From assembly GCF_003334305.1 (NCBI RefSeq), contig NZ_QOWS01000001.1: DNA of 64,000 nucleotides. One strand, written 5' to 3'. Every line of letters starts with the position of its first letter. Position 1 is the first letter of the stretch. Made by a program: the position numbers and the translations under genes. This DNA is from Escherichia coli (GTDB lineage: Bacteria > Pseudomonadota > Gammaproteobacteria > Enterobacterales > Enterobacteriaceae). The notes beneath the pieces were generated by a model, which was given only the letters and a program-made list of their open reading frames with translations, had not been told where the DNA came from and did not search any database. Below are positions 36,026-63,391 of the stretch, in pieces.

Positions 36026-36976
36026 ATGCGTGTGTTACTGGCTCCGATGGAGGGTGTGCTTGACTCTCTGGTGCGTGAATTGCTGACCGAAGTTAACGAC
36101 TACGATCTGTGCATCACCGAGTTTGTCCGCGTGGTGGATCAACTGCTGCCGGTAAAAGTCTTTCATCGCATTTGCCCTGAGCTACAAAACGCCAGCCGGA
36201 CACCATCTGGTACGCTGGTGCGCGTGCAGTTGTTAGGTCAGTTCCCACAATGGCTGGCAGAGAACGCCGCCCGTGCGGTGGAGTTAGGTTCCTGGGGCGT
36301 GGATCTCAATTGCGGCTGCCCGTCGAAAACGGTTAACGGTAGCGGCGGCGGCGCGACGTTACTCAAAGATCCTGAACTCATCTACCAGGGTGCAAAAGCG
36401 ATGCGTGAAGCTGTACCAGCGCATTTGCCCGTCAGCGTAAAAGTGCGTCTGGGCTGGGACAGCGGTGAGAAGAAATTTGAAATCGCCGATGCGGTTCAAC
36501 AGGCTGGCGCTACGGAGCTGGTGGTGCATGGACGGACAAAAGAGCAGGGTTACCGCGCGGAGCATATTGACTGGCAGGCGATTGGCGAGATTCGCCAGCG
36601 GCTGAATATTCCGGTGATTGCCAACGGCGAAATCTGGGACTGGCAGAGCGCGCAACAATGCATTGCGATCAGCGGCTGCGACGCAGTGATGATTGGTCGC
36701 GGGGCGCTCAATATTCCCAACCTGAGCCGGGTAGTAAAATATAACGAACCGCGAATGCCGTGGCCGGAGGTGGTTGCTTTGCTGCAAAAATATACCCGTC
36801 TGGAAAAGCAGGGCGATACCGGGTTATATCACGTTGCGCGGATTAAACAGTGGTTGAGTTATTTGCGTAAAAAATACGATGAAGCAACGGAATTATTTCA
36901 GCATGTTCGGGTGTTGAATAATTCCCCTGATATTGCAAGGGCTATTCAGGCAATTGATATCGATAAGCTGCGATAA
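36026..36976 (+). CDS. dusC: tRNA-dihydrouridine(16) synthase DusC, about 316 aa
   Basis: ORF 35960..36976; start set at ATG 36026 ([13 protein letters not shown]); Dus-family TIM barrel. Confidence 0.9.
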
Positions 36977-37059
36977 TAGTGGAATCGCAGTTTATCAGAG
37001 ACAATGAATCGCTTATTCAGCTTCATCATCTTGTTGCGCTCCTTTCATGAGCTAAGCCA

Positions 37060-37290
37060 CATATTGCCACTGGCGCAAGGAGCGCGCAGGGGGAGGACAA
37101 TCGCCTCCTCCCCCTGCACCCCCGGGCTCTGGCGAACAAAATCGCCGCTGCGCGGTACCTTCAGCTTATCCCCTTCGTCTACCGGGTCGGGCGCGAGGTA
37201 ACGTCCTTGTAAGACGCGCCCTCAGCCCACATCCATGTGGGCTGCCCCGGCCTTCGGGGAACGCTTCAGCGATTTTGACGCCACCAACAC
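37060..37290. repeat. GC-rich cluster of perfect hairpins in the dusC-yohP intergenic region (unclassified element)
   Basis: AGGGGGAGG-acaatcg-CCTCCCCCT, CAGCCCACA-tcca-TGTGGGCTG and CCCCGG-cctt-CGGGG stems; GC content well above the flanking AT-rich DNA. Confidence 0.35.
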
Positions 37291-37363
37291 CGGAGCTGTT
37301 TGCAAATCAAGTACACAAAATATCTAGTTCCTGACCTGACAACTTATATGCCATATCTGATTT

Positions 37364-37447
37364 TTAAAATATCATCTTAAATACGCCAGTCACCACCAGT
37401 AGCCCAATCAGGAAAATAATCAATACAGCCCAGAGTATAATTTTCAT
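37364..37447 (-). CDS. yohP: Small membrane protein YohP, 27 aa
   Basis: Minus-strand ORF, hand-translated as MKIILWAVLIIFLIGLLVVTGVFKMIF; absent from the ORF track because of its size. Confidence 0.7.
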   Translation of the reverse strand: MKIILWAVLIIFLIGLLVVTGVFKMIF

Positions 37448-37670
37448 TGGCGTTCCTTTATTTGTGAGTGCTGAATAAGTATAGGAAAAAACGAAGCCCT
37501 TTGCCGTTATCCATAAACGATTAAGATAAATCGGAAGATATCATTTACTTAGTCTATATTTTTCTGGATATGTCGTTTTATTGCTACTGATGTATTGCCA
37601 CGCGAAACTAAAAAATATATCGCAACACACGGTAATCTCCGCGCACCTTTTCTTACCTGATTATTCCCCC

Positions 37671-39107
37671 ATGAATCGTGATTCCTTTTATCCAGCCATC
37701 GCCTGTTTTCCGCTGTTACTGATGCTGGCCGGGTGTGCACCTATGCATGAAACCCGCCAGGCGTTAAGCCAGCAAACGCCTGCTGCACAAGTTGACACCG
37801 CATTACCCACGGCGCTGAAAAATGGTTGGCCAGACAGCCAATGGTGGCTGGAGTATCACGATAATCAACTCACTTCCTTAATTAACAATGCACTACAGAA
37901 CGCACCGGATATGCAGGTGGCTGAACAGCGCATTCAGCTAGCTGAAGCCCAGGCGAAGGCAATTGCTACTCAGGATGGTCCGCAGATCGACTTTTCTGCG
38001 GATATGGAGCGGCAAAAAATGTCGGCAGAAGGCTTAATGGGGCCGTTTGCTCTGAACGATCCGGCCGCAGGTACGACCGGTCCGTGGTACACCAACGGAA
38101 CTTTTGGCTTAACGGCGGGCTGGCATCTCGATATCTGGGGAAAGAATCGGGCGGAGGTTACTGCCCGCCTGGGTACGGTTAAAGCACGGGCGGCGGAACG
38201 CGAGCAAACCCGCCAATTGCTGGCTGGCAGCGTAGCCCGCCTGTACTGGGAGTGGCAAACCCAGGCGGCGTTAAACACGGTCTTGCAGCAAATAGAAAAA
38301 GAGCAGAACACCATTATCGCGACCGATCGCCAGCTATATCAGAACGGGATTACTTCTTCAGTTGAAGGTGTGGAAACCGATATTAATGCCAGCAAAACCC
38401 GGCAGCAGCTCAACGATGTCGCGGGGAAAATGAAAATTATTGAGGCACGGTTAAGCGCACTTACAAATAACCAGACAAAGTCATTGAAGCTTAAACCGGT
38501 CGCGTTGCCGAAAGTGGCAAGCCAGCTTCCTGATGAACTGGGGTACTCCTTACTGGCCCGGCGGGCAGATTTGCAGGCGGCGCACTGGTACGTTGAGTCA
38601 TCGCTAAGCACCATTGATGCGGCAAAAGCGGCATTTTATCCTGACATCAACCTGATGGCCTTCCTGCAACAGGATGCGTTGCACTTAAGCGATCTGTTCC
38701 GTCATTCCGCGCAGCAAATGGGCGTTACGGCAGGCCTGACGCTACCCATTTTCGATAGTGGTCGTCTTAACGCCAATCTCGATATCGCAAAAGCCGAAAG
38801 CAACTTGTCTATCGCCAGCTACAACAAAGCGGTGGTTGAAGCGGTGAATGACGTGGCGCGGGCAGCCAGTCAGGTTCAGACACTTGCGGAGAAAAACCAG
38901 CATCAGGCGCAAATTGAGCGCGATGCCTTGCGTGTGGTAGGTCTTGCGCAGGCGCGCTTTAACGCGGGCATCATTGCTGGTTCCCGCGTCAGCGAAGCCA
39001 GAATCCCCGCGCTGCGTGAGCGGGCCAATGGCCTGTTATTGCAAGGGCAGTGGCTGGATGCTTCCATTCAACTCACTGGTGCGTTGGGCGGGGGTTACAA
39101 ACGCTGA
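37671..39107 (+). CDS. mdtQ: Outer membrane efflux lipoprotein MdtQ (OMF family), 478 aa, apparently intact
   Basis: ORF 37581..39107; start set at ATG 37671 giving a lipoprotein signal (…LLMLAGCAPM). Confidence 0.85.
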   Translation: MNRDSFYPAIACFPLLLMLAGCAPMHETRQALSQQTPAAQVDTALPTALKNGWPDSQWWLEYHDNQLTSLINNALQNAPDMQVAEQRIQLAEAQAKAIATQDGPQIDFSADMERQKMSAEGLMGPFALNDPAAGTTGPWYTNGTFGLTAGWHLDIWGKNRAEVTARLGTVKARAAEREQTRQLLAGSVARLYWEWQTQAALNTVLQQIEKEQNTIIATDRQLYQNGITSSVEGVETDINASKTRQQLNDVAGKMKIIEARLSALTNNQTKSLKLKPVALPKVASQLPDELGYSLLARRADLQAAHWYVESSLSTIDAAKAAFYPDINLMAFLQQDALHLSDLFRHSAQQMGVTAGLTLPIFDSGRLNANLDIAKAESNLSIASYNKAVVEAVNDVARAASQVQTLAEKNQHQAQIERDALRVVGLAQARFNAGIIAGSRVSEARIPALRERANGLLLQGQWLDASIQLTGALGGGYKR

Positions 39108-41386: not shown

Positions 41387-41559
41387 AAAGTTCTTTGACG
41401 TTGCATTGCTGGCGTAAATGTCAGCAATGCAGCATTTCCTCACGATTCTCCTTTGACGATCGCACTTTTTGCTCGTTATGATGGCGTCGCTAGCCTCAGT
41501 AAATCCTTACTCCGGCGGTGCGCAACCCGTGCGCGTGAACCACTATCTGAATGCTCATC

Positions 41560-42492
41560 ATGCCGAAATTTCGAGTTTCTTTATTTAGCCTGGCCCTGAT
41601 GCTGGCTGTGCCTTTGGCACCGCAGGCCGTTGCGAAAACGGCAGCCGCTACCACCGCTTCACAACCGGAAATTGCCTCCGGTAGCGCGATGATTGTTGAT
41701 CTGAATACCAACAAAGTGATCTATTCGAACCACCCGGATCTGGTGCGTCCGATTGCGTCTATCAGCAAATTAATGACCGCGATGGTTGTGCTGGATGCAC
41801 GACTGCCGCTGGATGAAAAACTAAAAGTGGATATCAGCCAGACGCCGGAGATGAAAGGGGTCTATTCGCGCGTACGACTGAATAGCGAAATCAGCCGTAA
41901 AGATATGCTGTTGCTGGCGCTGATGTCTTCAGAAAACCGCGCGGCGGCAAGCCTTGCACACCATTATCCCGGTGGTTACAAAGCCTTTATTAAGGCAATG
42001 AATGCGAAAGCGAAATCGCTCGGAATGAACAACACGCGCTTTGTTGAACCTACCGGATTGTCGGTGCATAACGTTTCAACTGCCCGTGACTTAACCAAAC
42101 TGCTCATTGCCAGCAAACAATATCCGTTGATCGGGCAGTTAAGTACTACCCGGGAAGATATGGCAACCTTCTCTAACCCGACGTATACGCTGCCGTTCCG
42201 CAATACTAATCATCTGGTGTATCGCGATAACTGGAATATTCAGTTAACCAAAACCGGCTTTACCAATGCGGCGGGCCATTGTCTGGTGATGCGTACGGTT
42301 ATCAATAATAAACCGGTGGCGCTGGTAGTGATGGACGCGTTTGGCAAATATACCCATTTTGCCGATGCCAGCCGCCTGCGTACCTGGATTGAAACCGGTA
42401 AAGTGATGCCTGTGCCGGCAGCAGCGTTGAGCTATAAAAAACAAAAAGCCGCCCAAATGGCGGCGGCGGGGCAGACGGCACAGAACGATTAA
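41560..42492 (+). CDS. pbpG: D-alanyl-D-alanine endopeptidase PBP7 (PbpG), 310 aa
   Basis: ORF 41551..42492; start at 41560 ([25 protein letters not shown] signal peptide); SxxK motif ASISKLMT. Confidence 0.9.
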
Positions 42493-46948: not shown

Positions 46949-47866
46949 ATGCCACTCTTAAAGCTCTGGGCAGGTTCACTGGTTATGTTGGCAGCCGTGA
47001 GCCTGCCGCTACAGGCGGCTTCCCCCGTTAAAGTCGGTTCAAAAATCGATACCGAAGGTGCGCTACTCGGCAATATCATTTTGCAGGTGCTGGAAAGCCA
47101 CGGCGTACCGACGGTGAATAAAGTGCAACTCGGAACGACTCCTGTGGTGCGCGGGGCGATTACTTCCGGTGAACTGGATATCTATCCGGAATATACCGGC
47201 AATGGCGCTTTCTTCTTTAAAGATGAAAACGATGCAGCGTGGAAAAACGCGCAGCAAGGTTACGAGAAAGTCAAAAAGCTCGATTCGGAGCACAACAAGT
47301 TAATCTGGCTGACGCCCGCGCCTGCAAATAACACCTGGACTATCGCCGTGCGTCAGGATGTGGCAGAGAAAAATAAACTCACTTCGCTTGCCGACCTGAG
47401 TCGTTATCTGCAAGAGGGCGGCACCTTCAAACTGGCAGCCTCGGCAGAGTTTATCGAACGCGCCGATGCGTTACCCGCGTTTGAAAAAGCCTATGGCTTT
47501 AAGCTCGGTCAGGATCAGTTGCTGTCACTGGCTGGTGGCGACACGGCGGTGACGATCAAAGCCGCTGCCCAGCAAACCTCTGGCGTTAATGCTGCAATGG
47601 CTTACGGCACTGACGGCCCGGTAGCGGCGCTGGGGCTGCAAACCTTAAGCGATCCGCAAGGCGTGCAACCTATCTATGCGCCTGCACCAGTGGTGCGTGA
47701 ATCGGTGTTGAAGGAGTATCCGCAAATGGCACAGTGGCTACAGCCAGTCTTCGCCAGCCTCGATGCAAAAACATTGCAGCAACTGAATGCCAGCATTGCA
47801 GTTGAAGGACTGGATGCCAAAAAAGTGGCTGCCGACTACCTGAAACAAAAAGGGTGGACGAAGTAA
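46949..47866 (+). CDS. osmF: Glycine betaine-binding periplasmic protein OsmF (YehZ), 305 aa
   Basis: Signal peptide and substrate-binding protein; first gene of the yehZYXW ABC operon. Confidence 0.9.
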   Translation: MPLLKLWAGSLVMLAAVSLPLQAASPVKVGSKIDTEGALLGNIILQVLESHGVPTVNKVQLGTTPVVRGAITSGELDIYPEYTGNGAFFFKDENDAAWKNAQQGYEKVKKLDSEHNKLIWLTPAPANNTWTIAVRQDVAEKNKLTSLADLSRYLQEGGTFKLAASAEFIERADALPAFEKAYGFKLGQDQLLSLAGGDTAVTIKAAAQQTSGVNAAMAYGTDGPVAALGLQTLSDPQGVQPIYAPAPVVRESVLKEYPQMAQWLQPVFASLDAKTLQQLNASIAVEGLDAKKVAADYLKQKGWTK

Positions 47867-47872
47867 TTTCCC

Positions 47873-49030
47873 GTGACTTATCTACGTATTAATCCTGTTC
47901 TGGCGCTGCTGCTGTTGCTGACGGTAATCGCAGCGGCGCTGCCGTTTATCAGTTACGCGCCTAATCGTTTAGTTTCGGGTGAGGGGCGTCATCTCTGGCA
48001 GCTGTGGCCGCAAACGATCTGGATGCTGGTGGGCGTTGGTTGCGCCTGGCTGACGGCCTGTTTTATTCCCGGTAAAAAAGGCAGCATTTGTGCACTCATT
48101 CTGGCGCAATTCGTCTTCGTATTGCTGGTGTGGGGCGCGGGAAAGGCGGCGACACAACTGGCGCAAAATGGCAGTGCGCTGGCGCGTACCAGCCTCGGCA
48201 GTGGTTTCTGGCTGGCTGCGGCGCTGGCATTGCTGGCCTGTAGCGATGCCATCCGCCGAATCTCCACGCATCCGCTGTGGCGCTGGTTGTTGCATATGCA
48301 GATTGCCATTATTCCGCTGTGGTTGCTGTACTCCGGCACGCTTAACGATCTCTCACTAATGAAAGAATACGCCAACCGTCAGGATGTGTTTGACGACGCG
48401 CTGGCACAACATCTGACGTTGCTGTTTGGTGCGGTGCTGCCTGCGTTAGTGATTGGTGTGCCGTTGGGCATCTGGTGCTACTTTTCCACTGCTCGGCAGG
48501 GGGCAATTTTTTCTCTGCTCAATGTCATTCAGACCGTGCCTTCGGTGGCGCTCTTTGGCCTGTTGATTGCGCCGCTTGCCGCGCTGGTGACGGCCTTTCC
48601 GTGGCTGGGGAAGCTCGGCATAGCAGGAACCGGAATGACACCCGCACTGATTGCGCTGGTGCTCTATGCCTTGCTGCCGCTGGTGCGCGGCGTGGTAGTC
48701 GGTTTGAACCAGATCCCGCGCGATGTGCTGGAGAGCGCTAGAGCGATGGGCATGAGCGGGGCGCAGCGATTCCTGCATGTTCAGTTACCACTGGCGTTAC
48801 CGGTATTTCTGCGCAGCCTGCGGGTGGTGATGGTGCAAACTGTAGGTATGGCGGTGATTGCGGCGTTAATCGGCGCAGGCGGTTTTGGTGCGCTGGTTTT
48901 CCAGGGGCTGCTAAGCAGCGCCATTGATTTAGTGTTGCTGGGGGTGATCCCGGTAATTGTTCTGGCGGTGCTGATCGATGCCCTGTTCGATTTGCTTATC
49001 GCACTGCTGAAGGTGAAACGTAATGATTGA
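47873..49030 (+). CDS. yehY: ABC transporter permease YehY, 385 aa
   Basis: GTG start 7 nt after the osmF stop; polytopic permease with an EAA-like loop. Confidence 0.9.
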
Positions 49031-49949
49031 ATTTAGCCATGTCAGCAAACTGTTTGGCGCACAAAAAGCCGTTAACGATCTTAATCTCAATTTTCAGGAA
49101 GGGAGTTTTTCGGTGCTGATTGGCACATCTGGCTCCGGCAAATCCACCACCTTGAAAATGATTAACCGCCTGGTGGAACATGACAGCGGAGAGATCCGCT
49201 TTGCCGGAGAAGAAATTCGCTCGCTGCCAGTACTGGAGTTGCGCCGCCGGATGGGCTATGCCATTCAATCTATTGGCCTATTCCCCCACTGGAGCGTGGC
49301 GCAAAACATCGCTACCGTGCCGCAATTACAAAAATGGTCGCGGGCACGGATTGACGATCGTATCGACGAATTAATGACGCTACTGGGGCTGGAGTCAAAT
49401 TTGCGTGAGCGTTATCCGCATCAGCTTTCCGGTGGTCAGCAGCAACGTGTGGGAGTGGCGCGCGCACTGGCTGCCGATCCGCAAGTCTTACTGATGGATG
49501 AACCTTTTGGCGCACTGGACCCGGTAACGCGCGGCGCGTTGCAACAAGAGATGACGCGCATTCACCGTTTGCTGGGGCGCACTATTGTGCTGGTCACTCA
49601 TGATATTGATGAGGCGCTACGGCTGGCTGAACATCTGGTATTGATGGATCACGGTGAAGTGGTGCAGCAGGGCAATCCGCTGACGATGCTGACTCGTCCG
49701 GCGAATGATTTTGTCCGCCAGTTTTTTGGACGTAGCGAACTGGGTGTGCGTCTGCTTTCGTTACGTAGTGTGGCGGATTACGTGCGTCGCGAAGAACGGG
49801 CAGAAGGTGAGGCACTGGCAGAAGAGATGACGCTACGCGATGCGCTCTCCCTGTTTGTCGCGCGGGGTTGCGAGGTGCTGCCGGTGGTGAACACGCAGGG
49901 CCAGCCTTGCGGTACGCTGCATTTTCAGGATCTGCTGGTGGAGGCGTAA
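49023..49949 (+). CDS. yehX: ABC transporter ATP-binding protein YehX, 308 aa
   Basis: Walker [10 protein letters not shown], signature LSGGQQQR; overlaps the yehY stop. Confidence 0.9.
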
Positions 49950-49953
49950 GCGT

Positions 49954-50685
49954 ATGAAGATGTTGCGCGATCCGCTGTTCTGGCTCATTGCTTTGTTTGT
50001 GGCACTGATTTTCTGGCTGCCTTACAGCCAGCCGCTGTTTGCTGCCTTGTTCCCACAACTGCCACGACCCGTTTATCAGCAAGAAAGTTTTGCAGCTCTG
50101 GCACTGGCTCATTTCTGGCTGGTGGGAATTTCGAGTTTGTTTGCGGTGATCATTGGCACTGGTGCCGGAATTGCTGTCACTCGCCCGTGGGGCGCGGAAT
50201 TTCGCCCACTGGTGGAAACTATTGCCGCCGTTGGACAGACTTTTCCGCCTGTCGCAGTGCTGGCGATTGCCGTTCCGGTGATCGGCTTTGGTCTGCAACC
50301 AGCGATTATCGCCTTGATCCTTTACGGTGTGCTGCCCGTCCTGCAGGCGACACTTGCCGGGCTGGGAGCGATCGATGCCAGCGTGACAGAAGTTGCGAAA
50401 GGTATGGGAATGAGTCGTGGTCAGCGACTGCGTAAGGTCGAGCTACCGCTGGCGGCTCCGGTGATTCTGGCGGGCGTGCGAACTTCGGTGATTATCAACA
50501 TTGGTACGGCGACGATCGCCTCAACGGTAGGGGCCAGCACGCTGGGTACGCCCATCATCATCGGGCTTAGCGGATTTAATACCGCGTATGTGATCCAGGG
50601 GGCGTTACTGGTGGCACTGGCGGCGATCATCGCAGACCGCCTGTTTGAAAGGCTGTTGCAGGCGCTTAGCCAGCACGCAAAATAA
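49954..50685 (+). CDS. yehW: ABC transporter permease YehW, 243 aa
   Basis: Polytopic permease directly after yehX. Confidence 0.9.
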
Positions 50686-50773
50686 AGGTATAACCTGCGA
50701 GCATGACGCCACCAATTCCGCCGAACGCCATAAACAGGAACAGGGCGATGACCCCAATTTTAGCTATGCGCAT
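50666..50773 (-). CDS. yohO: Small membrane protein YohO, 35 aa
   Basis: Hand-translated minus-strand [38 protein letters not shown]; its 3' end overlaps the yehW 3' end by about 20 nt. Confidence 0.65.
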
Positions 50774-50832
50774 AATGCACTCCTTATGTTAACGAAAGGA
50801 TTGTACAGTAAAGCGCATTTGTTAACGAATCA

Positions 50833-51564
50833 TTAAATGCCGAGTGGGAAAATATCATGGCCTTGTTCTTGCCAACTGGTGAGTTGCTGCTGTTGGGCGG
50901 AGGTTCGATTTTCACCGCACCACACCAGCAATGTACGACCTTCGAATAGTTCAGGGCGTAGTTGATTGAGCGAGTGGGCGAGGACATCAATGCGCCATCC
51001 TTGTTGACTGGCAATCCAGCCCTCCAGCCACAGACGGGTGGTATCCTGAATATTCCAGCCAACCACCAGCGCATCTTTACCCTGTTTTTTACGTGCCGAA
51101 GCCAGACAAATGGCGATGTAGTTGATCAGTACGCCGTCGAGGATCGCCAGCAGCGCCTGGAGAGTCGGTTGTTGGCATTGAAGTCGTCGGCGCAGAGGAA
51201 TAAACAGATGTGTGGTGAGTGTCTGGGCGGGGTAATCCTGACCGCGCTCTTTGATCCACGTTCGCAGGCTATGCAGATTGCCGCTTTGCAGGTAGGTCAG
51301 TAATGTTTCTTGCTGATCGCGCCAGCCGTTCTGCACATCAACATTTTCATTACTGAGCAGCATTTTAACTTTGCTGACCTGCACGCCGTTGTCGATCCAG
51401 CGTTTGATCTCGCGGATACGGTCAATATCGGCATCGTTGAACAGTCGATGACCGCCGTCTGTCCGTTGCGGTTTCAGCAACCCGTAACGCCTCTGCCACG
51501 CGCGTAACGTGACAGGGTTAATATCACAAAGCAACGCCACTTCACCAATTGTGTAAAGCGCCAT
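50833..51564 (-). CDS. mlrA: MerR-family regulator MlrA (YehV), 243 aa
   Basis: N-terminal MerR HTH (MALYTIGEVALLCDINPVTLRAWQRRYGL). Confidence 0.9.
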   Translation of the reverse strand: MALYTIGEVALLCDINPVTLRAWQRRYGLLKPQRTDGGHRLFNDADIDRIREIKRWIDNGVQVSKVKMLLSNENVDVQNGWRDQQETLLTYLQSGNLHSLRTWIKERGQDYPAQTLTTHLFIPLRRRLQCQQPTLQALLAILDGVLINYIAICLASARKKQGKDALVVGWNIQDTTRLWLEGWIASQQGWRIDVLAHSLNQLRPELFEGRTLLVWCGENRTSAQQQQLTSWQEQGHDIFPLGI

Positions 51565-51785
51565 CGTCTCACCCTTGCTCGCGAGGTCCCGGTTTAACTT
51601 TAGACGCAGTTTTGCGAACCAGGTAGTTTTGCCCGTTTTTTGTGCATCTATAGGGTGATTTTATTTTTGCCAGGCGATTTTGAGTGATCGTACTCACGAA
51701 TTCTCATTTTTCTGCAAGAGTTCAAAGAAAGTTAAACGCAGGCAATGTATGTTACGCGTTTTAAAGGGAAGTGTGGTTTGCGGGT

Positions 51786-53471
51786 ATGTACGATTTTAAT
51801 CTGGTGTTGCTGCTGCTTCAGCAGATGTGCGTTTTTTTAGTCATTGCGTGGTTAATGAGTAAAACGCCATTATTCATACCGTTAATGCAGGTCACGGTTC
51901 GTCTGCCGCATAAATTTCTCTGCTACATCGTCTTTTCCATCTTCTGCATCATGGGCACCTGGTTTGGGTTGCACATTGACGATTCTATTGCCAATACCCG
52001 TGCGATAGGCGCGGTAATGGGCGGCTTACTCGGCGGTCCGGTCGTCGGTGGGCTGGTTGGTCTGACCGGCGGCTTACATCGATATTCGATGGGGGGCATG
52101 ACCGCGCTAAGTTGCATGATCTCAACCATCGTTGAAGGATTGCTCGGCGGCCTGGTACACAGCATCCTGATCCGTCGCGGGCGCACTGATAAAGTCTTTA
52201 ACCCCATTACCGCCGGTGCCGTCACGTTCGTCGCTGAAATGGTGCAAATGCTGATCATCCTTGCGATCGCCCGACCTTATGAAGATGCGGTGCGTCTGGT
52301 GAGTAATATTGCTGCACCAATGATGGTCACCAATACCGTCGGCGCGGCGCTGTTTATGCGTATATTGCTCGATAAACGCGCGATGTTTGAAAAATACACT
52401 TCTGCTTTTTCTGCCACTGCGCTGAAAGTGGCAGCCTCGACGGAAGGCATTTTGCGACAGGGGTTTAACGAAGTGAACAGCATGAAAGTGGCTCAGGTGC
52501 TGTATCAGGAGCTGGATATTGGTGCAGTCGCGATTACCGATCGAGAGAAATTGCTGGCCTTTACCGGAATTGGTGACGACCACCATTTACCCGGCAAACC
52601 GATTTCTTCGACTTACACCTTAAAAGCGATTGAAACCGGTGAAGTGGTCTACGCTGATGGCAACGAAGTACCTTATCGTTGCTCTTTGCATCCGCAATGC
52701 AAACTGGGGTCGACGCTGGTAATTCCGTTGCGTGGCGAAAATCAGCGCGTGATGGGCACCATCAAATTGTATGAAGCCAAAAACCGTTTATTCAGTTCAA
52801 TAAACCGCACGCTGGGCGAGGGGATTGCGCAACTGCTTTCGGCGCAGATTCTTGCCGGGCAATATGAGCGGCAAAAAGCGATGCTCACCCAGTCAGAAAT
52901 CAAACTGCTTCACGCCCAGGTGAATCCTCATTTTTTGTTTAATGCGCTTAACACCATTAAAGCGGTGATCCGCCGCGACAGCGAACAGGCCAGCCAGCTG
53001 GTGCAGTATCTTTCCACTTTTTTCCGCAAAAACTTAAAGCGGCCTTCGGAGTTTGTTACTCTCGCCGACGAAATTGAACATGTGAACGCTTATCTGCAAA
53101 TTGAAAAGGCGCGCTTCCAGTCGCGGTTGCAGGTCAACATTGCTATTCCGCAAGAATTATCCCAGCAGCAATTGCCCGCGTTTACCCTGCAACCGATAGT
53201 GGAAAACGCCATTAAACATGGGACATCACAACTGCTGGATACAGGGCGAGTGGCAATCAGCGCCCGACGTGAGGGGCAACATTTGATGCTGGAGATCGAA
53301 GACAATGCCGGTTTGTATCAACCGGTAACCAATGCCAGTGGGCTGGGGATGAATCTGGTGGATAAGCGTTTACGTGAACGGTTTGGCGATGACTATGGAA
53401 TAAGCGTCGCCTGTGAGCCTGATAGTTACACCCGAATAACGTTACGACTACCATGGAGGGACGAGGCATGA
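51786..53471 (+). CDS. btsS: Sensor histidine kinase BtsS (YehU), 561 aa
   Basis: ORF 51771..53471; start at ATG 51786 ([11 protein letters not shown]); 5TM/GAF/His-kinase organisation ([15 protein letters not shown]). Confidence 0.9.
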
Positions 53472-61834: not shown

Positions 61835-61944
61835 ATATTCATCCCTGAAATGTATTAATGAAATAAACGATATTTTACGCGCAATAAATGTTTGGCGCAT
61901 TAGTTGTTTGAGCAAAAAATATCTGGAAAGCAGATCGCAGTAAA

Positions 61945-62028
61945 TAAAAAAACCTGCTGGTGAGGCAGGTTCTTTTATTTACTATTTTCAGGCCTAACAC
62001 CACAGCCTGTGCAACATCGTGTTCCAAC
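61945..62028 (-). ncRNA. Candidate antisense sRNA antitoxin (OrzO/OrzP-type), about 84 nt
   Basis: Minus-strand TTGCAA-17 bp-TATAAT promoter (-10 at plus 62035-62040); predicted 5' end near 62028; strong terminator (AACCTGC-loop-GCAGGTT then TTTTT on minus); first ~20 nt complementary to the toxin leader at 62175-62194. Confidence 0.6.
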
Positions 62029-62034
62029 GAACGA

Positions 62035-62085
62035 ATTATAACCACGGCTGGACCCCGTTGCAATTAAGATAATGAGATTTATAAT
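62035..62085. promoter_or_regulatory. Back-to-back sigma70-like promoters sharing one palindromic -35 hexamer (toxin mRNA rightward, antisense sRNA leftward)
   Basis: Shared TTGCAA at 62058-62063; plus-strand TATAAT at 62080-62085 (16-bp spacer); minus-strand TATAAT at 62035-62040 (17-bp spacer). Confidence 0.55.
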
Positions 62086-62266
62086 CCAGACCGTTGGGAC
62101 GTTGCGCCGGATCGAACCTATTTCAAGTCCTGGCTACCGGACGGGGGGTGCTGCAGGTGGTGCCCTGATCCGGAGTGCAACATCGTGGTCCAACATACGT
62201 AAACCAGTATCGACAGGCAGTGTAAGGGTAAGGTGCTGGTGTTGCGCTCCTTAATAAGGAGAGCGG

Positions 62267-62356
62267 ATGGACTCGCTGACACAAAAGTTAACCGTGCTCA
62301 TTGCTGTACTGGAGCTATTAGTGGCTCTGTTACGGTTGATTGATTTGTTGAAGTAA
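62267..62356 (+). CDS. zorO/zorP: 29-aa hydrophobic peptide, type I toxin candidate (ZorO/ZorP-type)
   Basis: ATG 62267, AAGGAG 5 nt upstream; MDSLTQKLTVLIAVLELLVALLRLIDLLK, one predicted TM helix with charged ends; about 174-nt leader from the predicted start near 62093. Family name is from memory; which copy is zorO and which zorP is not resolved. Confidence 0.75.
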   Translation: MDSLTQKLTVLIAVLELLVALLRLIDLLK

Positions 62357-62377
62357 CGGGCAAATTGAAACGCATCT

Positions 62378-62402
62378 AAGGGGGAAAACCGCTTCCCCCT
62401 TT
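62378..62402 (+). terminator. Terminator hairpin of toxin mRNA copy 1
   Basis: AAGGGGGAA-aaccgc-TTCCCCCTT perfect 9-bp stem 22 nt after the stop; short U-tract. Confidence 0.5.
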
Positions 62403-62554
62403 AATAAAATGATTACTGTTTTTATTAATTCATCATATAACTCATTTTTATTTATAAATTCATCGATTTTATATTCAACGCACCATTTGACCGGGATGTG
62501 AATATTTATGTTGGGCTATTGGCAAAAAATATCTGGAAAGTAGATCGCAGAAAA

Positions 62555-62636
62555 TAAAAAAACCTGCTGGTGAGGCAGGTTCTTTTATTTACTACAGTGA
62601 CGCTAACTTGCTGATTGTGCAACATTTCGTACCAAC
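62555..62636 (-). ncRNA. Candidate antisense sRNA antitoxin, copy 2 (OrzO/OrzP-type), about 82 nt
   Basis: Minus-strand -10 TATAAT at plus 62643-62648 and shared -35 TTGCAA at 62666-62671; terminator 62561-62581 with U-tract; 5' region complementary to the copy-2 leader at 62783-62802. Confidence 0.6.
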
Positions 62637-62642
62637 GAATAA

Positions 62643-62693
62643 ATTATAACCATATCCACACTCCATTGCAATTCAGTGAGTGAGATTTATAAT
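62643..62693. promoter_or_regulatory. Back-to-back promoters of copy 2 sharing a palindromic -35
   Basis: TTGCAA at 62666-62671; plus-strand TATAAT 62688-62693; minus-strand TATAAT at plus 62643-62648. Confidence 0.5.
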
Positions 62694-62874
62694 CCTGCCC
62701 GTTGGGAGGTTGTGCCGGATCGGACCAATTTTAAGTCCTGGCTGCCGGACGGGTGGTGCCGCAGGCGGTGCCCTGATCCGGAGAGCAACGTTTCGTACCA
62801 ACATACGTAAACCAGTATCAACAGGCAGTGTAAGGGTAAGGTGCTGGTGTTGCGCTCCTTAATAAGGAGAGCGG

Positions 62875-62964
62875 ATGGACACGCTGACACAAAAGTTAAC
62901 CGTGCTCATTGCCGTACTGGAGTTATTAGTGGCTCTGTTACGGTTGATTGATTTGTTGAAGTAA
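62875..62964 (+). CDS. zorO/zorP: 29-aa hydrophobic peptide, type I toxin candidate copy 2 (ZorO/ZorP-type)
   Basis: ATG 62875 with AAGGAG upstream; MDTLTQKLTVLIAVLELLVALLRLIDLLK, differing from copy 1 only at residue 3 (S to T). Confidence 0.75.
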   Translation: MDTLTQKLTVLIAVLELLVALLRLIDLLK

Positions 62965-62985
62965 CGGGCAAATTGAAACGCATCT

Positions 62986-63010
62986 AAGGGGGAATACCGT
63001 TTCCCCCTTT
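62986..63010 (+). terminator. Terminator hairpin of toxin mRNA copy 2
   Basis: AAGGGGGAA-taccgt-TTCCCCCTT stem. Confidence 0.5.
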
Positions 63011-63018
63011 AAGAAAGC

Positions 63019-63073
63019 TATACTCGTCATACTTCAAGTTGCATGTGCTGCGACTTTAATTATCTAGAGTATA
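63019..63073. repeat. Truncated ERIC-like element abutting the yehK 3' end
   Basis: TATACTCGTCATACTTCAAGTTGCATGTGCTGCG ... AATTATCTAGAGTATA: ERIC terminal arms with the central part missing. Confidence 0.55.
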
Positions 63074-63391
63074 TTATTCTATTTCTTGGTTGAATATATT
63101 CTGTAGTTCACGATTAAAAATTGCTATTACAGTTTCAGGTGATTCACCTCGTAATTTCCGCTCATCAATACACTCATCTCTTATATAAATCAACGCATCA
63201 TTTATTAGCGGGTCAGCATCTTCTCGATCACGTTGATGAAATGTTGGATGTAGCCGGAATCGCTCCAGTCGATAGACGGAACCTGTAAATAATTCAGAGC
63301 ATTTATGGATCTCAAGTCTGAAGGAAAACGGATCTTCAGGTACAGGGACCTCATAATCGTAAATAGCAACTAGCTCTTTTTGCACGATCAT
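63074..63391 (-). CDS. yehK: Uncharacterised protein YehK, 105 aa
   Basis: 105-aa ORF (MIVQKELVAIYDYEVPVPEDPF...) between yehI and the repeat island. Confidence 0.85.
   Translation of the reverse strand: MIVQKELVAIYDYEVPVPEDPFSFRLEIHKCSELFTGSVYRLERFRLHPTFHQRDREDADPLINDALIYIRDECIDERKLRGESPETVIAIFNRELQNIFNQEIE

What the first reader, a model, noticed from the sequence alone, without database searches (positions are those of the whole stretch)
50666..50773. Small membrane-protein genes missed by the ORF track (yohO here, yohP at 37364-37447)
Hand translation finds a 35-codon minus-strand ORF whose 3' end overlaps yehW convergently, and a 27-codon ORF between dusC and mdtQ. Both encode single hydrophobic helices. 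They are known small proteins but fall below the track length cut-off, showing that the window contains coding capacity the track does not display.
Basis: partly seen in the sequence, partly recalled or inferred. Interest (0 to 1): 0.25.

Follow-up and report, generated by a model that had tools for sequence, protein, structure and literature searches.

The report
Known small membrane proteins YohO, YohP
The two tiny open reading frames are real: they are the already annotated and experimentally detected E. coli small membrane-protein genes yohO (35 codons) and yohP (27 codons), so the finding is correct but ordinary.

Summary
Both ORFs sit exactly where stated: yohO at 50666-50773 (-) and yohP at 37364-37447 (-). 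yohO overlaps the 3' end of yehW convergently by 20 nt. The window holds 397 ATG-started ORFs of 27 codons or more, so an ORF of this size proves nothing alone. The other evidence is decisive. Both are annotated in RefSeq, pass the NCBIfam equivalog cut-offs, and occur in over 99.9% of 5,426 complete E. coli genomes. Both are conserved at the same position across many enterobacterial genera. The annotated frame shows clear purifying selection: pN/pS is 0.26 for YohO and 0.08 for YohP, and invariant residues use 2-5 synonymous codons. A Shine-Dalgarno site is conserved upstream of each. Published work reports a tagged YohP product, and Ribo-seq and top-down mass spectrometry for YohO. YohP is a stationary-phase, SRP-inserted single-helix protein that mildly depolarises the membrane. 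YohO's function is unknown. New details from this work are a yohO-yehW overlap conserved in all 54 informative loci, a conserved private yohO promoter, and a conserved sigma-S-type -10 box for yohP. The window also holds two more hidden small hydrophobic genes, the zorO/zorP type I toxins. Verdict: already known, low interest.

The parts
50666..50773 (-). yohO coding sequence (35 codons plus stop): [35 protein letters not shown]
   Evidence: ORF list. RefSeq annotation 'protein YohO', WP_001216961.1. NCBIfam NF010225 scores 78.2 bits against a cut-off of 57. pN/pS is 0.26 over 54 orthologues. AlphaFold2 predicts a single helix over residues 3-34.
50666..50685 (.). Convergent 3'-end overlap of yohO (-) and yehW (+), 20 nt
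   Evidence: An overlap of 17-26 nt is present in all 54 orthologous loci that contain both genes. The yohO-yehW pair is listed as a convergent excludon from RNA-seq in PMC12288877.
50780..50785 (-). Shine-Dalgarno AAGGAG, 6 nt upstream of the yohO ATG
   Evidence: Sequence. The (A)GGAG core at this distance is present in 50 of 55 orthologues and weakened to GGAA or GGTG in five.
50800..50805 (-). Putative yohO -10 hexamer TACAAT (TATAAT in most other genera), inside the 59-nt mlrA-yohO spacer
   Evidence: Conserved block in the alignment of 19 genera. It is retained in six genera that lack mlrA. The promoter assignment is inferred; no transcription start data were examined.
50820..50843 (-). 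Conserved upstream block around the -35 region. It contains the first GTTAACA (50820-50826) and an inverted repeat TTAATG-N3-C(A/G)TTAA that spans the mlrA stop codon.
   Evidence: The block persists where mlrA is absent, so it is not just the end of mlrA. Its function is unknown.
50787..50793 (-). Second conserved GTTAACA, 33 nt downstream of the first and just 5' of the Shine-Dalgarno site
   Evidence: Its function is unknown.
37364..37447 (-). yohP coding sequence (27 codons plus stop): MKIILWAVLIIFLIGLLVVTGVFKMIF
   Evidence: ORF list. RefSeq 'small membrane protein YohP', WP_000691708.1. NCBIfam NF011345 scores 67.3 bits against a cut-off of 58. pN/pS is 0.08. Residues 11-27 are invariant across 35 distinct DNA sequences with 2-5 synonymous codons at every codon that can vary.
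37454..37458 (-). Shine-Dalgarno AAGGA, 6 nt upstream of the yohP ATG
   Evidence: A purine-rich GGA/GGAG is present upstream in nearly all orthologues.
37477..37484 (-). CTATACTT, a putative sigma-S-type -10 element of yohP
   Evidence: It is the only upstream block conserved across 22 representative loci, as CTA(Y/A)(A/G)CT. It matches the sigma-S -10 consensus as I recall it. It fits the published stationary-phase induction (PMC12719787). The assignment is inferred.

Best explanation
Both ORFs are genuine, translated genes for single-pass inner-membrane proteins in an E. coli chromosome that is not K-12. YohP (shown in the literature): it is made from its own promoter in stationary phase, on minimal medium and under oxygen limitation. 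It is too short for co-translational targeting, so SRP/FtsY binds it post-translationally and hands it to SecYEG or YidC. It sits mainly C-in/N-out and dimerises through a mid-helix glycine. At stationary-phase levels it partly dissipates the membrane potential. That triggers the Psp response, nucleoid condensation, ppGpp accumulation and reduced metabolism. My inference: transcription is sigma-S dependent through the conserved CTATACTT -10 box. The complete invariance of residues 11-27 points to a specific helix-helix contact (dimer or partner) rather than generic hydrophobicity. YohO (existence shown, function inferred): it is a 35-residue continuous helix with a basic N-terminus (R2, K5) and an invariant core G19-x-x-G22-V-M-L-x-G27-Y28. 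It is expressed from its own conserved promoter in the 59-nt spacer after mlrA, and its mRNA necessarily runs antisense into the end of yehW. I infer that the glycine-rich face packs against itself or a larger membrane protein and modulates that protein, as other enterobacterial small membrane proteins do. This last step is inference only, at roughly 0.3 confidence.
For: Identity: the coordinates match RefSeq yohO and yohP exactly. NCBIfam equivalog scores exceed their cut-offs. The exact sequences are in public collections under these names. Population: the yohO region is in 5424 of 5426 complete E. coli genomes and yohP in 5422 of 5426. Selection: YohO was found in 54 and YohP in 37 loci from other species, at the syntenic position. 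Variable sites by codon position 1/2/3 are 21/15/31 of 35 for YohO and 11/1/24 of 27 for YohP. pN/pS is 0.26 and 0.08. The annotated frame is the best of six frames and stays open. Invariant residues are encoded by several synonymous codons. Start codons, Shine-Dalgarno sites and length (34-37 aa and 27 aa) are conserved. Structure: hydropathy ranks 1st and 4th of 246 small ORFs, and AlphaFold2 predicts one helix over residues 3-34 with pLDDT 89.9. Expression and function: YohP-SPA western blots and growth conditions (PMC12719787); depolarisation, Psp, ppGpp and metabolic silencing; SRP, SecYEG/YidC, topology and dimer (PMC7549839). YohO has Ribo-seq coverage in frame and is cited as a membrane-bound small protein from Hemm 2008, and it is detected by top-down MS. 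Promoters: conserved -10 blocks. yohO is kept with its upstream block in six genera that lack mlrA.
Against: I found no functional study of YohO. It matches no Pfam family and no PDB chain. MS coverage of YohO was below 50%. The primary tagging papers (Hemm 2008 and 2010, Fontaine 2011) are not held in the library, so they are cited second-hand. YohP effects were measured mostly after premature plasmid expression. The deletion mutant has only mild phenotypes, and the authors list this as a limitation. yohP is dispensable in nature: 15 loci with both mdtQ and dusC show no remnant of it. The promoter assignments rest on conservation and consensus resemblance only. The simple sigma-70 scan did not call either of them.
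Confidence: 0.93

Rival explanations
1. The two ORFs are chance open frames in intergenic DNA and are not translated.
For: Short ORFs are abundant: 397 ATG ORFs of at least 27 aa in 64 kb. The consensus promoter scan did not call a promoter for either.
Against: Frame-specific purifying selection over many genera. Conserved ATG and Shine-Dalgarno sites. NCBIfam equivalog hits. Published tagged protein, Ribo-seq and MS detection.
Confidence: 0.01
2. Conservation of the yohO stretch reflects other overlapping functions rather than a YohO protein. Candidates are the 3' end of yehW, its terminator, or an antisense RNA acting on yehW.
For: 20 nt are shared with yehW. The overlap is conserved in 54 of 54 loci. 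The pair is listed as an excludon (PMC12288877). One antisense frame also shows a lowish pN/pS of 0.42.
Against: The most conserved residues (19-28, window 50690-50719) lie outside the yehW overlap and vary freely at third codon positions. The antisense frames carry stops in 30-54 of 54 orthologues. yohO stays intact in Escherichia sp. MOD1-EC7003, where osmF to yehW is largely deleted. The protein itself is detected. An antisense role could still exist in addition to the protein.
Confidence: 0.03
3. YohP is the toxin of an unrecognised type I toxin-antitoxin pair, like the zorO/orzO loci in the same window, and not a stress-response membrane protein.
For: It is small and hydrophobic, it depolarises the membrane and it slows growth when produced early. 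The authors themselves note the resemblance to membrane toxins.
Against: No antitoxin-like RNA family was found near yohP at gathering or E<=1 thresholds, whereas OrzO/OrzP were found at once in the same scan. The only antisense promoter-like match is a 9/12 consensus hit within chance expectation (1 found against 1.8 expected). The putative leader is short, with the -10 box about 30 nt from the ATG, unlike the 174-nt zorO 5' UTR. The native protein reaches high levels in stationary phase without killing cells. No homologue was found on plasmids.
Confidence: 0.05
4. YohO is functionally tied to the OsmF-YehYXW glycine-betaine ABC transporter. It could be an accessory helix of the YehW/YehY permease, or the overlapping convergent transcripts could make the two expression states mutually exclusive.
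For: yohO accompanies orthologous yehW with overlapping stop regions in 54 of 54 loci across many genera. It stays with yehW in six genera that have lost mlrA. It appears in the excludon list.
Against: An overlap, once formed, is hard to undo, so its conservation may be passive. Convergent, mutually interfering transcription argues against a stoichiometric subunit. yohO is intact where the transporter operon is deleted. No PDB complex contains a YohO-like chain. No experiment links them.
Confidence: 0.15

Closest known systems
YohP, small membrane protein of E. coli K-12 (b4679; WP_000691708.1; NCBIfam NF011345)
   Same: 100% identical over all 27 residues, with the same neighbours dusC and mdtQ. 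It scores above the equivalog cut-off.
   Different: The gene itself does not differ. The flanks differ from K-12: mdtQ is intact here but a pseudogene in K-12.
YohO, UPF0387 family protein of E. coli (b4542; NCBIfam NF010225)
   Same: 35 aa in the same mlrA-yohO-yehW arrangement. It scores above the equivalog cut-off. The exact sequence is in public collections as 'protein YohO'.
   Different: Residue 17 is Phe here, where four of the five other Escherichia loci have Leu and most other genera have Ile. This is a conservative change within the helix.
Type I toxins such as ZorO/ZorP (29 aa, same window) and TisB
   Same: They are single hydrophobic helices of fewer than 40 residues. Membrane depolarisation is reported for YohP and for these toxins.
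   Different: ZorO/ZorP have divergent Orz antitoxin sRNAs (Rfam RF02083 hits), and zorO has a long 5' UTR. No such RNA was found for yohP or yohO. Native YohP accumulates without lethality.
Small membrane-protein modulators of larger complexes (AcrZ-AcrB, MgtS-MgtA, CydX-CydAB, KdpF), recalled from my own knowledge
   Same: Size, single helix and enterobacterial distribution. This is the working analogy for YohO.
   Different: No partner is known for YohO. No YohO-like chain appears in any solved structure. This is a resemblance only, not membership.

Membership tests
YohO (NCBIfam NF010225 / PRK13681, UPF0387) | Whole-protein HMM score at or above the curated equivalog cut-off (57 bits), full-length match | tested here: met
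   78.2 bits, E 3.4e-22, residues 1-35 on profile positions 1-35 of 35
YohO (NCBIfam NF010225 / PRK13681, UPF0387) | Syntenic position downstream of mlrA and convergent with yehW | tested here: met
   mlrA stop to yohO ATG is 59 nt. The overlap with yehW is 20 nt. The layout is the same in K-12 and in 54 loci of other species.
YohO (NCBIfam NF010225 / PRK13681, UPF0387) | Translated, membrane-associated product | not testable with these tools
   Literature only: Ribo-seq in frame and citation of Hemm 2008; top-down MS. Computationally, one predicted helix and hydropathy 2.36.
YohP (NCBIfam NF011345 / PRK14762) | Whole-protein HMM score at or above the curated equivalog cut-off (58 bits), full-length match | tested here: met
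   67.3 bits, E 7.7e-19, residues 1-27 of 27. Annotated as WP_000691708.1 in 100%-identical records.
YohP (NCBIfam NF011345 / PRK14762) | Position between dusC and mdtQ (or yohF where mdtQ is absent) | tested here: met
YohP (NCBIfam NF011345 / PRK14762) | Integral membrane protein made in stationary phase | not testable with these tools
   Literature: PMC12719787 and PMC7549839. Computationally, it has the highest hydropathy of all 246 small ORFs.
Type I toxin-antitoxin system (considered for YohP) | Cognate antisense or divergent sRNA antitoxin next to the toxin gene | tested here: not met
   No Rfam antitoxin family near yohP at gathering or E<=1 thresholds, while OrzO/OrzP were detected at 61946-62021 and 62556-62629 in the same scan. 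No above-chance antisense promoter. An undescribed sRNA cannot be excluded.
Type I toxin-antitoxin system (considered for YohP) | Over-production is toxic and is neutralised by the antitoxin | not testable with these tools
   The literature reports sublethal depolarisation and slower growth, with no antitoxin described.

The most novel reading that the evidence does not exclude
The convergent 3' overlap of yohO with yehW is conserved at 17-26 nt in every informative locus, and yohO keeps it even in genera that have lost mlrA. This overlap could be a functional coupling device. On this reading, yohO transcription from its private promoter reads antisense into the osmF-yehYXW mRNA. That promoter is conserved and operator-flanked, and in Shigella yohO is repressed under anaerobiosis. 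Alternatively, YohO could bind the YehW/YehY permease. Either way, the tiny gene would gate the glycine-betaine ABC transporter. A second open reading is that the invariant 17 residues of YohP mark a specific protein partner rather than generic membrane perturbation.
Probability: 0.15. Interest if true: 0.4.

Novelty: already known. Interest (0 to 1): 0.07.

Why it matters
It matters little as a discovery. Both genes are in the standard E. coli annotation, and YohP has become a model for post-translational SRP insertion and for stress-induced 'metabolic silencing'. The practical lesson is methodological. A length cut-off on an ORF track hides real genes, and in this window a simple hydropathy ranking of small ORFs recovers all four hidden ones (yohP, zorP, zorO, yohO). 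YohO remains one of the small proteins with proven existence and no known function. The conserved glycine-rich core, the private promoter and the locked overlap with yehW documented here give concrete handles for testing it.

Tried and rejected
I replaced it with a Dld-anchored genome scan and an exhaustive phmmer search for YohO. That search found only 14 cluster representatives, all close enterobacterial relatives or frame-shifted artefacts.
2. The primary papers Hemm 2008, Hemm 2010, Fontaine 2011 and Weaver 2019 are not held. I cite them only through papers that are held.
3. Pfam gave no family for YohO. The PDB gave no chain for either protein. tblastn of YohP against plasmids gave nothing, possibly because of the low-complexity filter.
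4. The simple promoter and terminator scans gave nothing above shuffle expectation near either gene. The promoter proposals therefore rest on cross-genus conservation instead.
5. Thirteen loci seemed to have yehW without yohO. The hits turned out to be the paralogous permease YehY (33-39% identity) at the edge of the fetched DNA, so they say nothing about absence.
6. An MlrA-box reading of the yohO promoter: against AAAATTGTACA-N12-TGTACAATTTT (PMC9662190), the right half matches 9/11 but the left half only 5/11, and the right half is not conserved outside Escherichia. I rejected this as weak.
7. Two literature hits for 'yohO' were a reference-list artefact and a screening list without follow-up.

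Full report
OBSERVATION. With the ORF cut-off lowered to 20 aa, the window contains the two ORFs exactly as described. The first is 50666..50773 (-), 35 aa, [35 protein letters not shown]. The second is 37364..37447 (-), 27 aa, MKIILWAVLIIFLIGLLVVTGVFKMIF. The 243-aa ORF at 49954..50685 (+) is yehW, so the two 3' ends overlap convergently by 20 nt, at 50666-50685. The 27-codon ORF lies between dusC (36026-36976, +) and mdtQ (37671-39107, +), divergent from mdtQ. The default threshold of the equivalent tool here is 60 aa, which would hide both.

IS IT MORE THAN CHANCE? ORF length is not. The window has 397 ATG-started ORFs of at least 27 aa and 309 of at least 35 aa. Everything else is.

- Among the 246 ATG ORFs of 27-60 aa, ranking by the best 19-residue Kyte-Doolittle window puts YohP first (2.96) and YohO fourth (2.36). 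Places two and three go to two 29-aa ORFs discussed below.
- Both ORFs have a Shine-Dalgarno sequence 6 nt upstream: AAGGAG at 50780-50785 and AAGGA at 37454-37458.
- One scan of a species-representative genome collection, anchored on Dld (which lies between the two genes), returned 80 enterobacterial loci. YohO was found in 54 of them and YohP in 37, at the syntenic position. Genera include Escherichia, Salmonella, Citrobacter, Enterobacter, Lelliottia, Raoultella, Kosakonia, Siccibacter and Cedecea.
- Substitutions are strongly frame-specific. Variable sites at codon positions 1/2/3 are 21/15/31 of 35 for YohO and 11/1/24 of 27 for YohP. Pooled pN/pS against the window is 0.26 and 0.076, at pS of about 0.6.
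- Among the six frames, the annotated one has the lowest pN/pS and stays open in the orthologues. For YohO it is the only such frame. For YohP one antisense frame is also stop-free in all 37, with a pN/pS of 0.31, which I attribute to shared wobble positions.
- Invariant residues are written with several synonymous codons. YohO G19, V23, A26 and G27 each use four. YohP residues 11-27 are invariant at the protein level, with 2-5 codons at every codon that can vary.
- The ATG, the Shine-Dalgarno site and the length are conserved. YohO is 34-37 aa. YohP is 27 aa, or probably 28 in Kosakonia and Phytobacter, where an ATG sits one codon upstream.
- An unbiased screen of all 54 intergenic small ORFs in the testable 21.7 kb ranked these two first and second for cross-genus conservation.

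IDENTITY. Megablast against 5,426 complete E. coli genomes finds the yohO region in 5,424 and the yohP region in 5,422. RefSeq annotates them as 'protein YohO' and 'small membrane protein YohP' at exactly these coordinates. In K-12 MG1655 they are b4542 and b4679. Both pass the curated NCBIfam equivalog cut-offs: NF010225 at 78.2 against 57 bits, and NF011345 at 67.3 against 58 bits. Both exact sequences are in public protein collections under those names. The window is collinear with strain H15 and is not K-12: mdtQ is intact and the zor-orz locus is present.

WHAT IS KNOWN EXPERIMENTALLY. YohP has been studied in some depth.

- A chromosomal SPA-tagged allele under the native promoter gives a product that rises from early to late stationary phase, on minimal medium and under oxygen limitation (PMC12719787).
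- SRP binds YohP post-translationally and, with FtsY, delivers it to SecYEG or YidC.
- yohP mRNA localises to the membrane independently of translation.
- The protein is carbonate-resistant and mostly C-in/N-out. It dimerises through a single mid-helix glycine (PMC7549839).
- Production causes sublethal depolarisation, Psp induction, nucleoid condensation, ppGpp accumulation and metabolic down-shift. The deletion raises sensitivity to ciprofloxacin and oxidative stress but is otherwise mild (PMC12542507, PMC12719787).
- A weak two-hybrid signal with RNase E is regarded by its authors as possibly unspecific (PMC13232886).

YohO is far less studied. [quoted passage not shown] It is detected by top-down MS, with under 50% coverage (PMC12529367). 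In Shigella flexneri it falls about 8-fold (log2 -2.96) under anaerobiosis (PMC4229854). I found no functional study.

ANATOMY ADDED HERE. YohO is predicted as one continuous helix over residues 3-34, with pLDDT 89.9. Invariant positions in 24 distinct orthologues are M1, K5, G19, G22, V23, M24, L25, G27, Y28 and I31. Positions M15, A16, I20, G21 and A26 are nearly invariant. This is a contiguous glycine-rich core, not just one hydrophobic stripe. An exhaustive phmmer search of 1.84 billion representatives finds only 14 hits, all close enterobacterial relatives or frame-shifted calls, so the family is narrow. No Pfam family and no PDB chain match.

The stop regions of yohO and yehW overlap in all 54 loci that contain both: 20 nt in 22 of the 55 sequences counting the window, 26 nt in 29, and 17 or 23 nt in 4. 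RNA-seq-based work lists yohO-yehW as a convergent excludon (PMC12288877).

The mlrA-yohO spacer is about 59 nt in most loci. It contains a conserved TATAAT (TACAAT here, 50800-50805) and two conserved GTTAACA copies 33 nt apart (50820-50826 and 50787-50793). It also contains an inverted repeat TTAATG-N3-CATTAA around the -35 region. The whole block persists in six genera that lack mlrA, where yohO remains next to yehW. yohO therefore very probably has its own promoter, with an operator-like element. This is inferred; no transcription start data were examined. In Escherichia sp. MOD1-EC7003 most of osmF to yehW is deleted, yet yohO is intact.

For yohP, the only conserved upstream block besides the Shine-Dalgarno site is CTATACTT (37477-37484), seen as CTA(Y/A)(A/G)CT in 22 representative loci. 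It resembles the sigma-S-type -10 element with C at -13, as I recall that consensus, and it fits stationary-phase induction. yohP is missing, with no remnant, from 15 loci that have both mdtQ and dusC, including E. albertii and several Citrobacter. It is therefore strongly constrained where present but dispensable.

MECHANISM AND RIVALS. The best explanation is that both are bona fide single-pass inner-membrane proteins. YohP's pathway and effects are shown in the literature. Its sigma-S dependence and the idea of a specific helix-helix contact are my inferences. For YohO I commit, at low confidence (about 0.3), to a modulator model: the glycine-rich helix packs against itself or a polytopic partner.

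- Chance ORFs are excluded.
- An RNA- or DNA-only explanation for yohO conservation is excluded because the most conserved codons lie outside the yehW overlap and wobble freely, and because the peptide is detected. An additional antisense role remains possible.
- YohP as a type I toxin is not supported. No antitoxin RNA family appears near it, whereas OrzO and OrzP are found at once elsewhere in the window. There is no above-chance antisense promoter. The putative leader is short, and the native protein accumulates without killing cells.
- A functional link between YohO and the OsmF-YehYXW transporter is compatible with the locked synteny but is untested. The natural deletion weakens it.

COMPARISON AND NOVELTY. 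These are the known genes themselves, so the novelty class is 'already known'. The main omission is that the same criterion reveals two further small hydrophobic ORFs in the window.

VERDICT. There is no novelty and interest is low (0.07). The residual open question is the function of YohO and whether its conserved overlap with yehW has regulatory meaning (probability about 0.15; interest about 0.4 if true).

Noticed in passing
window 61836-63074 (between yehL and yehK): A duplicated zor-orz type I toxin-antitoxin locus. Rfam OrzO-P (RF02083) hits lie at 61946-62021 (-), 99.9 bits, and 62556-62629 (-), 88.8 bits. The 29-aa toxin ORFs lie at 62267-62356 (+), MDSLTQKLTVLIAVLELLVALLRLIDLLK, and 62875-62964 (+), MDTLTQKLTV.... 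Each is followed by a hairpin terminator. They rank 2nd and 3rd in hydropathy among small ORFs. The stretch carries no annotation in the RefSeq record of the identical strain, and in K-12 the yehK-yehL gap is only 306 nt. The system is known from PMC3919570, which reports it missing from MG1655. So the window hides four small membrane-protein genes, not two.
   Followed up: yes
window about 37016-37345, immediately 3' of yohP: An unannotated, GC-rich, highly structured repeat of about 280 bp (RNA fold z = -6.05 on the yohP strand). There are about 3 copies per E. coli genome, with a paralogue in the aqpZ-lysO spacer. It gives a sub-threshold full-length match to the TwoAYGGAY RNA motif, RF01731 (27.7 and 30.6 bits against a gathering score of 43), with two adjacent hairpins whose loops read AUGGAU and AGGGAU. 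In BL21 and in one other E. coli the element sits in the same spacer but in the opposite orientation, at about 88% identity. In many genomes homology breaks 2 nt past the yohP stop codon. It also occurs in a Klebsiella MAG (L058). It may form the yohP 3' UTR in some strains and the dusC 3' UTR in others. Its nature (mobile element or RNA motif) is unresolved.
   Followed up: partly
window 50787-50843 (-), mlrA-yohO spacer: A conserved promoter-like block: TTAATG-N3-C(A/G)TTAA inverted repeat, GTTAACA, 14 nt, TATAAT/TACAAT, then a second GTTAACA 33 nt after the first, then the Shine-Dalgarno site. It is kept in genera that lack mlrA. yohO drops log2 -2.96 anaerobically in Shigella with no FNR effect listed. 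The resemblance to the MlrA box is weak. No regulator was tested.
   Followed up: partly
window 37477-37484 (-): CTATACTT is the only conserved block upstream of yohP across 22 representative loci. It looks like a sigma-S-type -10 element. I did not find this stated in the YohP papers I read.
   Followed up: partly
window 37671-39107 (+): mdtQ is an intact 478-codon gene here and in strains H15 and BL21. In K-12 MG1655 and DH5alpha it is annotated as a pseudogene (internal stop in the DH5alpha record).
   Followed up: partly
window 41475-41555 (+): A Peptidase-S11 RNA motif (Rfam RF03039, 72.8 bits against a gathering score of 34.8) lies directly upstream of pbpG (41560-42492).
   Followed up: no
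L005 7141-7510 (Escherichia sp. MOD1-EC7003), equivalent to window 47062-50593: A natural deletion removes most of yehW, all of yehX and yehY, and most of osmF. It leaves yohO and the last roughly 90 nt of yehW intact.
   Followed up: partly
L006, L011, L012, L014, L015, L021-L023, L034, L035, L039, L043, L048, L050, L055 (mdtQ-dusC intervals): yohP is absent, with no recognisable remnant, in E. albertii NBRC 107761, several Citrobacter, Pseudocitrobacter and others. Yet it is nearly invariant wherever it is present.
   Followed up: partly
window 51549-51799 (+), mlrA-btsS spacer: Several short ORFs in this spacer give stop-free hits in 9-26 non-Escherichia loci. This most likely reflects conserved regulatory DNA of the divergent mlrA and btsS promoters. 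I did not apply a codon-position test.
   Followed up: no
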